Shown: positions 59,658 through 60,584, counted from the stretch's first letter. The stretch is 64,000 bases of DNA from Escherichia coli O127:H6 str. E2348/69 (GCF_000026545.1 NC_011601.1), one strand, 5' to 3'. The notes: a model not told the origin generated them from the letters alone. A program made the numbers and translations.

Positions 59658-60584
59658 TCAGGAGAGATATTTATCGAACCATTTCAGCGTCCTTTGCCAG
59701 GCAAGATCGGCGGCAGATTTGTCATAACGGGGCGTGGAATCATTATGGAATCCGTGATTAACCCCCGGATATATATACGCCTCATAGACCTTATTATTGG
59801 CTTTCAACGCCGCCTCGTAAGCGGGCCAGCCCTCGTTGATTCGGCTATCCAGTTCAGCGTAGTGGAGCAGTAAAGGCGCTTCAATCTTCGCCACATCGGC
59901 AGTGGGTGCCTGACGCCCATAAAACGGCACCGCGCAGGCCAGTTCCGGATACGCGACTGCTGCCGCGTTCGATACGCCCCCGCCATAGCAAAATCCGCTA
60001 ATACCCACTTTGCCTGTCGCTTGCGGATAGCGTTGCATAAACTCAATTGCGGCAAAGAAATCATTCATCAGTTTGGTTGGATCAACCTGCTGTTGCAGCT
60101 CACGACCTTTATCATCATTTCCCGGATAACCTCCAACGGAACTTAAGCCGTCAGGTGCCAGGGCGATATACCCCGCCTTCGCCACTCGCCGTGCCACATC
60201 TTCGATATACGGATTCAGTCCACGATTCTCATGCACCACCACCACGGCTGGCGTTTTGCCGCTCATTTTTGCGGGCTTCACCAGATAACCCCGTACCTCG
60301 CCGTGACCATTTGGCGAGGGATACGTGATGTACTCAGCAACAATTTCCGGGTCGGTAAACTCTACCTGAGTCGCCAGCGCATAATTTGGCTTGAGCAAAT
60401 CAAACAGCGCTAATGCCGTCATCCCGCCCACCGCATACTTCGCCGCAAGGTTGAGGAACTCACGTTTCGAGATTTTCCCGTGAGCGTAATAGTCGTAGTA
60501 ATCCAGCAACTCTTGTGGGAAATCTTTGGCGGTTAAACGCGGCATCGTTGCACTCCTCAACTGGTGTTTTTTTAAGCAAAGCAT
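59658..60584 (-). CDS. yghX: Dienelactone hydrolase-family protein YghX (intact here)
   Basis: Uninterrupted 308-codon ORF; probable start MPRLTAKDF at 60545; alpha/beta-hydrolase nucleophile motif GFCYGG; N-terminal region ISKREFLNLAAKYAVGGMTALA resembles a KR-variant Tat signal. Confidence 0.75.
   Translation of the reverse strand: MLCLKKHQLRSATMPRLTAKDFPQELLDYYDYYAHGKISKREFLNLAAKYAVGGMTALALFDLLKPNYALATQVEFTDPEIVAEYITYPSPNGHGEVRGYLVKPAKMSGKTPAVVVVHENRGLNPYIEDVARRVAKAGYIALAPDGLSSVGGYPGNDDKGRELQQQVDPTKLMNDFFAAIEFMQRYPQATGKVGISGFCYGGGVSNAAAVAYPELACAVPFYGRQAPTADVAKIEAPLLLHYAELDSRINEGWPAYEAALKANNKVYEAYIYPGVNHGFHNDSTPRYDKSAADLAWQRTLKWFDKYLS

What the first reader, a model, noticed from the sequence alone, without database searches (positions are those of the whole stretch)
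59658..60584. Intact yghX dienelactone hydrolase with a Tat-like N-terminus next to the Tat-dependent hyb operon
yghX is a single uninterrupted 308-codon ORF here, whereas from memory K-12 annotates it as a split pseudogene. Its N-terminal region (SKREFLNLAAKYAVGGMTALALF) resembles a twin-arginine signal with a Lys-Arg pair, hinting at a periplasmic hydrolase.
Basis: partly seen in the sequence, partly recalled or inferred. Interest (0 to 1): 0.3.

Follow-up and report, generated by a model that had tools for sequence, protein, structure and literature searches.

The report
Intact yghX hydrolase, Tat-like leader
This is the ordinary, intact form of the E. coli yghX hydrolase gene (broken in the K-12 lab strain); its first 58 residues look like a twin-arginine export signal with Lys-Arg in place of Arg-Arg, but export is untested and the leader is unusually conserved and predicted to be folded.

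Summary
The ORF is real: minus strand, 59658-60584, 308 codons. The likely start is the ATG at 60545, giving 295 aa (RefSeq WP_001298390.1). The window is 100% identical to EPEC E2348/69.

K-12 yghX is a pseudogene with a 2-bp and a 1-bp deletion. Its N-terminal fragment is the known 47-aa protein YqhI. Only about 23% of 5,426 complete E. coli genomes carry the K-12 deletions, so an intact yghX is normal.

The protein is a YghX-family dienelactone-hydrolase-fold enzyme with a Cys186-Asp233-His264 triad. PDB 4ZV9 is the mature domain.

Residues 1-58 have the layout of a Tat signal: S-K-R-E-F-L, a weakly hydrophobic stretch, K52, P53 and A-L-A|T. The second Arg, the Phe and the A-x-A are invariant across species. 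The first basic residue is Arg in Pseudomonas and in 78% of distant relatives.

Three results argue against a simple cleaved signal:
- The curated Tat HMMs do not detect it.
- Residues 1-25 are as conserved as the enzyme itself.
- AlphaFold2 predicts a confidently folded three-helix N-module.

The position next to hyb is lineage-specific synteny, not a functional link.

Verdict: a plausible but unproven Tat substrate. Interest is modest.

The parts
59658..60545 (-). yghX coding sequence, 295 aa plus stop (YghX family hydrolase, WP_001298390.1)
   Evidence: ORF. RefSeq annotation of the 100%-identical E2348/69 record. NF041440 585.7 bits against a cutoff of 460. PF01738 DLH 161 bits.
60546..60584 (-).
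   Evidence: It contains the Shine-Dalgarno sequence of the annotated start. It is not conserved in other genera. RefSeq starts at 60545.
60553..60558 (-). Shine-Dalgarno GAGGAG, 7 nt upstream of the ATG at 60545-60543
   Evidence: Read directly from the sequence.
60471..60545 (-). Residues 1-25, conserved n-region (MPRLTAKDFPQELLDYYDYYAHGKI); part of Pfam PF23678 'YqhI-like'
   Evidence: PF23678 75.7 bits. Mean frequency of the commonest residue is 0.87, against 0.86 for the mature enzyme. R3, A6, D8, F9, L14, D18, Y20 and H22 are invariant. AF2 helix 11-21.
60450..60470 (-). Residues 26-32, S-K-R-E-F-L-N: twin-arginine-like motif with Lys27-Arg28
   Evidence: R28 and F30 are invariant, L31 0.97, and position 27 is only K or R. 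It matches the TatP expression RR.[FGAVML][LITMVF] only if K is allowed at position 1 (PMC1182353).
60402..60437 (-). Residues 37-48, YAVGGMTALALF: candidate h-region, 12 uncharged residues between K36 and D49
   Evidence: Kyte-Doolittle 13-residue maximum is 1.75. The Tat signals tested give 1.43-1.75 and OmpA, PhoA, DsbA and Bla give 2.3-2.45. Residues 33-50, which contain this stretch, are the most variable segment of the protein (0.70).
60372..60401 (-). Residues 49-58, DLLKPNYALA: candidate c-region with K52, P53 (-6) and A56-L57-A58 (-3, -2, -1); predicted signal peptidase I site between A58 and T59
   Evidence: P53, Y55, A56 and A58 are invariant in 74 species. Position -1 is Ala in 189 of 192 family members. 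The PDB 4ZV9 construct begins at residue 59/60.
59661..60371 (-). Residues 59-295, mature dienelactone-hydrolase-fold domain
59988..59990 (-). Codon of Cys186, the nucleophile in G-F-C-Y-G-G; aligns with Cys123 of Pseudomonas ClcD
   Evidence: Alignment to 4U2C (ClcD C123S variant) puts C186 on residue 123, D233 on D171 and H264 on H202. C186, D233 and H264 are invariant in 54 sequences.
60436..60437 (-). Site of the K-12 2-bp (TA) deletion in codon 37, which creates the 47-aa YqhI fragment
   Evidence: Alignment with MG1655. YqhI sequence in PMC6001520. The allele is present in 1,251 of 5,426 genomes.
60075..60076 (-). Site of the K-12 1-bp deletion (CCAACCAAA to CCAACAAA), codon 157
   Evidence: Alignment. 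The allele is present in 1,199 of 5,426 genomes.

Best explanation
yghX encodes the precursor of a cysteine-type dienelactone-hydrolase-fold esterase or lactonase of unknown substrate. I infer, without direct evidence, that its first 58 residues are a long twin-arginine (Tat) type signal peptide in a natural Lys-Arg variant.

The inferred layout of the leader is:
- a 25-residue conserved n-region;
- the S-K-R-E-F-L motif;
- a short, weakly hydrophobic h-region (YAVGGMTALALF);
- a c-region with a basic residue (K52), a Pro at -6 and A-L-A at -3 to -1.

In this model the enzyme folds in the cytoplasm, is exported folded by TatABC, and is cleaved by signal peptidase I between A58 and T59. That would release a soluble periplasmic hydrolase equal to the domain crystallised as 4ZV9.

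Shown here: gene structure, family membership, fold, catalytic triad, conservation pattern, Tat-like sequence statistics, and the K-12 lesions with their frequency.

Inferred, not shown: export itself, Tat rather than Sec as the route, the cleavage site, and the substrate.

The conserved n-region is predicted by AlphaFold2 to form helices packed on the enzyme. It probably has a second, sequence-specific role in the precursor, such as docking on the folded domain. That role is speculation.

The location beside the hyb operon is an accident of Escherichia/Citrobacter gene order.
For: Family and fold:
- NF041440 585.7 bits, PF01738 161 bits.
- 4ZV9 is near-identical over residues 59-294.
- The triad C186/D233/H264 aligns with ClcD C123/D171/H202 and is invariant.

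Tat-likeness:
- The motif [STND]-[KR]-R-x-F-L is conserved. R28 and F30 are 100% and L31 97% in 74 species proteins; the basic pair is only K-R or R-R in all 80 loci.
- K-R is found in Enterobacterales, Rhizobiales and Rhodobacterales; R-R in Pseudomonas, Thalassospira and one Burkholderiales genome.
- R-R is found in 86 of 110 distinct N-modules among distant representatives.
- A56 and A58 are invariant. Position -1 is Ala in 189 of 192. The +1 residue is variable. P53 at -6 is invariant. Position 52 is K or R in 42%.
- The h-region is the least conserved part of the protein (0.70 against 0.86). Its hydrophobicity is 1.75 here and 1.66 +/- 0.22 across the family, within the range of the Tat signals tested and below that of strong Sec signals.
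- A PSSM from the 24 complete E. coli Tat signals in Table 2 of PMC7549933, with the RR columns excluded, gives YghX 12.9 bits; 14 of 24 true signals score lower in leave-one-out. Among 2,404 [KR]R-anchored windows in neighbouring ORFs (mean -31.7, sd 10.8), only two score as high, and both are HybO.
- The distant R-R homologue P0269 reaches 15.7 bits on TIGR01409, whose cutoff is 16.7.
- A natural K-R Tat signal (Salmonella TtrB) and tolerated R-to-K substitutions in SufI and TorA are documented (PMC1182353).
- Long n-regions exist in E. coli Tat signals, for example YagT at 53 aa.
- The structural-genomics construct 4ZV9 starts at residue 59/60.
Against: - TIGR01409 and PF10518 give no hit at E <= 10 for the E. 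coli or the Pseudomonas (R-R) N-terminus, while the HybO control scores 30.1 and 22.2 bits.
- The strict R-R requirement of TatP and TATFIND is not met. YghX is absent from a TatP list for an ExPEC strain.
- The uncharged stretch is only 12 residues here and in 36% of the family. 38% of the family carry Asp or Glu at position 49 and a few carry Glu at position 45.
- The n-region (0.87) and c-region (0.90) are as conserved as the enzyme, including invariant polar residues (R3, D8, D18, H22, N54/Y55). Targeting alone does not explain this.
- Helix 44-51 shows conservation on one face.
- AlphaFold2 with a 54-sequence alignment gives pLDDT 82-91 for residues 1-60 and pTM 0.90 for the whole chain. 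That implies a docked, folded N-module rather than a floppy signal.
- Characterised Cys-type dienelactone hydrolases are cytoplasmic (my own knowledge, not checked here).
- No paper on YghX localisation was found.
Confidence: 0.55

Rival explanations
1. Residues 1-58 are not a cleaved signal. They form a permanent three-helix N-terminal cap of a cytoplasmic hydrolase, and the Tat-like pattern is vestigial (as in the cytoplasmic NarG N-terminus) or coincidental.
For: - AlphaFold2 pLDDT 82-91 for residues 1-60 and pTM 0.90 for all 295 residues; helices 11-21, 27-37 and 44-51.
- The n- and c-regions are as conserved as the catalytic domain, with invariant polar residues.
- G40, G41, T43 and A44 are 89-96% conserved inside the supposed h-region.
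- Positions 45, 49 and 52 form a variable, often polar or acidic face.
- The curated Tat HMMs are negative.
- The N-module occurs only on this DLH subfamily, not as a portable signal.
- Pfam treats residues 1-36 as a domain, PF23678.
Against: - The truncated domain 59/60-294 is soluble and crystallises with the same fold, so the module is not needed for folding.
- The exact set of residues Tat and signal peptidase need is what stays invariant: second Arg, F at +2, L at +3, Pro at -6, Ala at -3 and -1, and a variable +1.
- The PSSM context score is typical of real E. coli Tat signals and is otherwise reached only by HybO.
- The segment between the motif and the A-x-A is the most variable part of the protein, as in signal peptides.
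- No solved structure contains such a cap on a DLH fold.
Confidence: 0.3
2. The leader is a functional export signal, but it uses Sec rather than Tat, or it stays uncleaved as a membrane anchor.
For: - The Lys-Arg pair weakens Tat recognition.
- Sec signals also have a basic residue (K36) before a hydrophobic stretch followed by A-x-A.
- Regular expressions alone misassign Sec signals as Tat signals (PMC1182353).
Against: - Hydrophobicity of 1.75 is well below OmpA, PhoA, DsbA and Bla at 2.3-2.45.
- A basic residue in the c-region (K52; K or R in 42% of the family) is a Sec-avoidance feature (interpretation from my own knowledge).
- The 35-residue N-terminal segment has no net positive charge, which is atypical for Sec.
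- A 12-residue stretch containing Gly-Gly is too short and too polar for a transmembrane anchor.
- There is no lipobox cysteine.
Confidence: 0.1

Closest known systems
YghX family hydrolase (NCBIfam NF041440; E. coli O157:H7 Sakai protein, PDB 4ZV9, 'uncharacterized protein')
   Same: It is the same protein family. The window protein is 98% identical to the main E. coli cluster and near-identical to 4ZV9 over residues 59-294. It has the same N-module plus DLH architecture (PF23678 + PF01738).
   Different: Nothing of substance differs. The window allele has S183 where 4ZV9 has Thr, Y229 (Phe) and S234 (Thr); K-12 also encodes Thr at codon 183. Function and location of the family are uncharacterised.
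K-12 yghX pseudogene and the small protein YqhI (47 aa)
   Same: It is the same locus, and the first 36 codons are identical. YqhI is MPRLTAKDFPQELLDYYDYYAHGKISKREFLNLAAK followed by an 11-residue frameshifted tail.
   Different: K-12 carries a 2-bp and a 1-bp deletion. The window gene is uninterrupted. The K-12 alleles occur in 1,251 and 1,199 of 5,426 complete genomes.
Dienelactone hydrolase ClcD of Pseudomonas (PDB 1DIN; carboxymethylenebutenolidase, EC 3.1.1.45)
   Different: Identity is only 25-27%. ClcD has no N-terminal extension and is a cytoplasmic chlorocatechol-pathway enzyme. yghX has no catabolic operon context, so the same substrate cannot be assumed.
Natural Lys-Arg Tat signal of Salmonella TtrB, and long-leader E. 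coli Tat substrates (YagT/PaoA, HybO)
   Same: All share a basic pair followed by x-F/L-L/I, a weakly hydrophobic h-region, A-x-A and a long n-region. R-to-K at the first position is tolerated (PMC1182353; Table 2 of PMC7549933).
   Different: Those proteins carry redox cofactors and their export has been shown. YghX has no known cofactor and no experimental export data. Its n-region is far more conserved and is predicted to be folded.

Membership tests
YghX family hydrolase (NCBIfam NF041440) | Full-length match to the curated HMM above its cutoff of 460 bits | tested here: met
   585.7 bits, profile positions 1-292 of 292.
Dienelactone hydrolase family (Pfam PF01738) | Match to the DLH HMM above the gathering score, and the alpha/beta-hydrolase DLH fold | tested here: met
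Dienelactone hydrolase family (Pfam PF01738) | Cys-His-Asp catalytic triad at the ClcD positions | tested here: met
   C186, D233 and H264 align with C123, D171 and H202 and are invariant in 54 sequences.
Dienelactone hydrolase family (Pfam PF01738) | Hydrolysis of dienelactone (EC 3.1.1.45) | not testable with these tools
   No enzymology was found. There is no chlorocatechol-pathway gene context.
Twin-arginine (Tat) signal peptide | Two consecutive arginines in the (S/T)-R-R-x-F-L-K motif | tested here: not met
   The window protein has S-K-R-E-F-L-N, i.e. K27-R28. Orthologues have R-R in 28 of 80 species and distant relatives in 86 of 110. The TatP expression is met only if K is allowed at position 1.
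Twin-arginine (Tat) signal peptide | Match to the curated HMMs TIGR01409 (cutoff 16.7 bits) or PF10518 (cutoff 22.7 bits) | tested here: not met
   No hit at E <= 10 for the E. coli or Pseudomonas N-termini. The distant homologue P0269 scores 15.7 bits. The HybO control scores 30.1 and 22.2 bits.
Twin-arginine (Tat) signal peptide | Sequence context around the basic pair resembling known Tat signals | tested here: met
   A home-made PSSM from 24 E. coli Tat signals gives 12.9 bits; the leave-one-out median is 11.0. Only HybO scores as high among 2,404 control windows.
Twin-arginine (Tat) signal peptide | Moderately hydrophobic h-region of at least about 13 uncharged residues | tested here: inconclusive
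   The stretch is 12 uncharged residues (K36 to D49). Hydrophobicity of 1.75 is in the Tat range. 61% of the family have 13 or more and 36% have exactly 12.
Twin-arginine (Tat) signal peptide | Signal peptidase I site (small residues at -3 and -1, helix breaker near -6) | tested here: met
   P53-N-Y-A56-L-A58|T59. P53, A56 and A58 are invariant.
Twin-arginine (Tat) signal peptide | TatABC-dependent export and cleavage in vivo | not testable with these tools
   No experimental report was found.

The most novel reading that the evidence does not exclude
The YghX leader may be a two-in-one element. It would be a genuine Tat signal peptide whose conserved 25-residue n-region and P-N-Y-A-x-A c-region fold, in the cytoplasmic precursor, into a helical module docked on the finished hydrolase domain. 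That docking could mask the catalytic cysteine or the signal until folding is complete. The module would then be removed on export. If so, this is a built-in pro-peptide or proofreading device on a cofactor-less Tat substrate, conserved across Alpha-, Beta- and Gammaproteobacteria.
Probability: 0.25. Interest if true: 0.6.

Novelty: new member of a known kind. Interest (0 to 1): 0.3.

Why it matters
The standard list of E. coli Tat substrates was drawn up on K-12, where yghX is a pseudogene. TatP and TATFIND ignore Lys-Arg motifs.

If YghX is exported by Tat, most natural and pathogenic E. coli have one more Tat substrate than the textbook list. That substrate would be a periplasmic cysteine hydrolase conserved at 72-80% identity from Enterobacterales to Rhizobium and Pseudomonas, with an unknown substrate.

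The unusually conserved leader, predicted to be folded, could also be a useful case for studying how Tat signals interact with their passenger proteins.

If YghX is not exported, the finding is just a normal allele of an uncharacterised hydrolase.

Tried and rejected
- **Functional link to hyb:** rejected. hybO is within 6 kb in only 2 of 79 non-E. coli species loci, and no neighbour family is conserved beyond 14 of 80 loci.
- **A portable N-module on other protein families:** rejected. The 35 representatives without a DLH match are frameshifted or chimeric metagenome fragments.
- **The pO157 'dienelactone hydrolase' found in EHEC supernatants (PMC5120812):** this is a different, plasmid-encoded protein.
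- **YghX as a cPHB polymerase candidate (PMC3709699):** this is only a 'GXCXG' similarity remark with location unknown.
- **Literature searches for localisation or Tat dependence of DLH-family proteins:** nothing usable was found.
- **Promoter and terminator scan around yghX:** no more sites than expected by chance.
- **Structure search for an N-terminal cap like the predicted one:** no solved structure covers residues 1-58.
- **afdb50 fold library:** unavailable.
- **First version of the uncharged-stretch and PSSM scripts:** it mis-anchored A-x-A and R-R-R cases. These were corrected and re-run (and 67 to 68).

Full report
**Observation.** The window is 100% identical to the chromosome of EPEC strain E2348/69 over the queried stretch. 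The biologically relevant start is the second ATG, at 60545, which gives 295 aa. Four results support this:
- RefSeq annotates that start (WP_001298390.1).
- A GAGGAG Shine-Dalgarno sequence lies 7 nt upstream.
- Conservation across 80 species begins exactly at this Met, while upstream in-frame sequence is unrelated.
- The K-12 small protein YqhI, detected by chromosomal tagging, begins MPRLTAKDF... (PMC6001520).

**K-12 comparison.** MG1655 yghX is annotated 'frameshifted'. Alignment shows a 2-bp deletion (TA of codon 37) and a 1-bp deletion in codon 157; otherwise the two sequences are about 97% identical. The first lesion produces exactly the 47-aa YqhI sequence, 36 native residues plus CGRRDDGISVV. 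Pfam's 'YqhI-like' family PF23678 is therefore the N-terminus of YghX.

Allele-specific queries find the 2-bp deletion in 1,251 and the 1-bp deletion in 1,199 of 5,426 complete E. coli genomes. Many of these are K-12 laboratory derivatives. At least 5,415 genomes carry the locus. An intact yghX is therefore the usual state and K-12 is the exception.

**What the protein is.**
- It scores 585.7 bits on NCBIfam NF041440 'YghX family hydrolase' (cutoff 460) and 161 bits on Pfam DLH.
- PDB 4ZV9, an 'uncharacterized protein' from E. coli O157:H7 Sakai, is the same protein over residues 59/60-294.
- C186 (G-F-C-Y-G-G), D233 and H264 align with the ClcD triad C123/D171/H202 and are invariant in 54 diverse sequences.
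- No enzymology or localisation study was found.

The family is strikingly conserved. Orthologues in Pseudomonas, Rhizobium, Rhodobacteraceae, Thalassospira and Burkholderiales are 72-81% identical to the E. coli protein.

**The N-terminus: evidence for a Tat-type signal.** A search of 1.84 billion cluster representatives with residues 1-63 gave 1,050 hits. Every interpretable hit carries the same module in front of a DLH domain.

The family pattern is M-x-R-x-x-A-x-D-F-x-x-x-L-L-x-L-[YF]-D-x-Y-x-H-G-x-I-x-[KR]-R-x-F-L-x-x-A-x-x-[FY]-A-V-G-G-x-T-A-x-A-L-[LF]-x-x-L-x-P-N-Y-A-x-A | x-Q-V.
- The basic pair is K-R in 52 and R-R in 28 of 80 species loci. All 25 Pseudomonas have R-R. It is R-R in 86 of 110 distinct distant N-modules.
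- R28, F30, P53, A56 and A58 are invariant. The +1 residue is free. Position 52 is K or R in 42%.
- The stretch between the motif and the Pro is the most variable part of the whole protein: 0.70 mean commonest-residue frequency against 0.86 for the enzyme.
- That stretch is only moderately hydrophobic. The Kyte-Doolittle 13-residue maximum is 1.75 here and 1.66 +/- 0.22 across the family. Six E. coli Tat signals give 1.43-1.75; OmpA, PhoA, DsbA and Bla give 2.3-2.45.

I then built a position-specific matrix from the 24 complete E. coli Tat signals listed in Table 2 of PMC7549933. It covers positions -3 to +19 around the first Arg, with the two Arg columns left out so that K-R and R-R are treated alike.
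- YghX scores 12.9 bits.
- In leave-one-out, the true signals have a median of 11.0 bits, and 14 of 24 score lower than YghX.
- The 2,404 [KR]R-anchored windows in about 860 unrelated neighbouring ORFs have mean -31.7 (sd 10.8).
- Only two of those windows reach 12.9, both HybO, and the next three also look like real Tat signals.

Published work shows that Lys at the first position is tolerated (SufI, TorA) and occurs naturally in Salmonella TtrB (PMC1182353). The structural-genomics construct that gave 4ZV9 begins within one residue of the predicted A-L-A|T site. That fits a design based on a predicted signal peptide, which is my inference.

**The N-terminus: evidence against a simple signal.**
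- The curated models TIGR01409 and PF10518 do not report the E. coli or the Pseudomonas R-R N-terminus even at E <= 10. The HybO leader encoded in this window scores 30.1 and 22.2 bits. One distant R-R homologue reaches 15.7 bits, just under the 16.7 cutoff.
- The uncharged stretch is 12 residues, from K36 to D49. 36% of the family have exactly 12. 38% have Asp or Glu at position 49.
- Residues 1-25 are as conserved as the catalytic domain (0.87), with invariant R3, D8, D18 and H22. The c-region (0.90) has invariant N54/Y55-type positions that signal peptidase does not need.
- With a 54-sequence alignment, AlphaFold2 gives pLDDT 82-91 for residues 1-60 (helices 11-21, 27-37, 44-51) and pTM 0.90 for all 295 residues. 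The catalytic domain is only 80% of the chain. Such a pTM therefore implies that the N-module is placed confidently against it. This is my inference, because coordinates and PAE were not available.
- With only 7 sequences the same helices appeared at pLDDT 67-84, with a dip below 50 at residues 54-57.
- No solved structure has a comparable cap.

**Weighing the evidence.** The residues that stay fixed are those that Tat and signal peptidase I read, and the hydrophobic core is free to vary. This pattern is very unlikely by chance, and the control windows confirm that. The conservation and predicted folding of the rest of the leader show that it does more than targeting, or something other than targeting.
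- Probability about 0.55: a K-R Tat signal on a periplasmic hydrolase, possibly with an additional role of the leader in the precursor.
- Probability about 0.3: a permanent N-terminal cap on a cytoplasmic enzyme with a vestigial Tat-like pattern.
- Probability about 0.1: Sec export or membrane anchoring, which the low hydrophobicity, the basic c-region residue and the neutral 35-residue N-terminus make unlikely.

**Genomic context.** The order is hybO (57945-59063, minus), yghW (59252-59539, minus), yghX, then divergently gpr. Across 80 species loci no neighbour family is shared by more than 14 loci. Within the fetched flanks, hybO was found in 2 loci (both Citrobacter), yghW in 5 and gpr in 8, all enterobacterial. 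yghX is thus a stand-alone gene with no adjacent dedicated chaperone, and its place next to the Tat-dependent hyb operon is lineage-specific synteny.

**Novelty and verdict.** The gene, family, structure and the K-12 pseudogene are all already catalogued. What may be new is a Tat-like K-R leader of 58 residues with a conserved n-region that is predicted to be folded. I found no paper describing it, and default Tat predictors would skip it. It is a candidate additional E. coli Tat substrate that K-12-based lists miss. This is of modest interest until a fractionation or reporter experiment is done.

Noticed in passing
window 61011-62439 (gpr fragments 60702-61010 and 62440-63177): gpr (yghZ, L-glyceraldehyde-3-phosphate reductase) is split at about codon 103 by a 1,429-bp IS3-family IS1397 copy. 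The ends are TGAACTGCACCCCAAA and TTTGGGGTTCAGTTCA, with a 3-bp TGG target duplication. The same junction occurs in only 25 of 5,426 complete E. coli genomes (O127:H6 strains and a few others). From memory, IS1397 normally targets intergenic REP/BIME palindromes, so an insertion inside a coding sequence looks atypical.
   Followed up: partly
window 59552-59577: A perfect 11-bp inverted repeat, TCGCTATATAT-TGCC-ATATATAGCGA, lies in the 118-bp gap between the yghX stop codon and the yghW start codon. It may be an operator or a terminator-like hairpin. It was flagged only by the simple terminator scan.
   Followed up: no
K-12 locus L001 3119-4003; window 60436-60437 and 60075-60076: The two K-12 yghX lesions are not perfectly linked in the species: 1,251 genomes carry the 2-bp deletion and 1,199 the 1-bp deletion. 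One Nissle-derived record matched the 1-bp-deletion query over bases 2-48 of 48 at 100% identity. The order in which the two mutations arose could be reconstructed.
   Followed up: partly
yghX orthologue loci L003-L082: YghX is 72-81% identical between Enterobacterales, Pseudomonas, Rhizobiales and Rhodobacterales. That is unusually high for an uncharacterised accessory hydrolase. It suggests strong purifying selection or horizontal spread.
   Followed up: no
window 57945-59063 (hybO, minus strand): The HybO leader [37 protein letters not shown] served as an internal positive control. It scores 30.1 bits on TIGR01409, and it is the only sequence that matches or beats YghX in the Tat-context PSSM.
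   Followed up: yes
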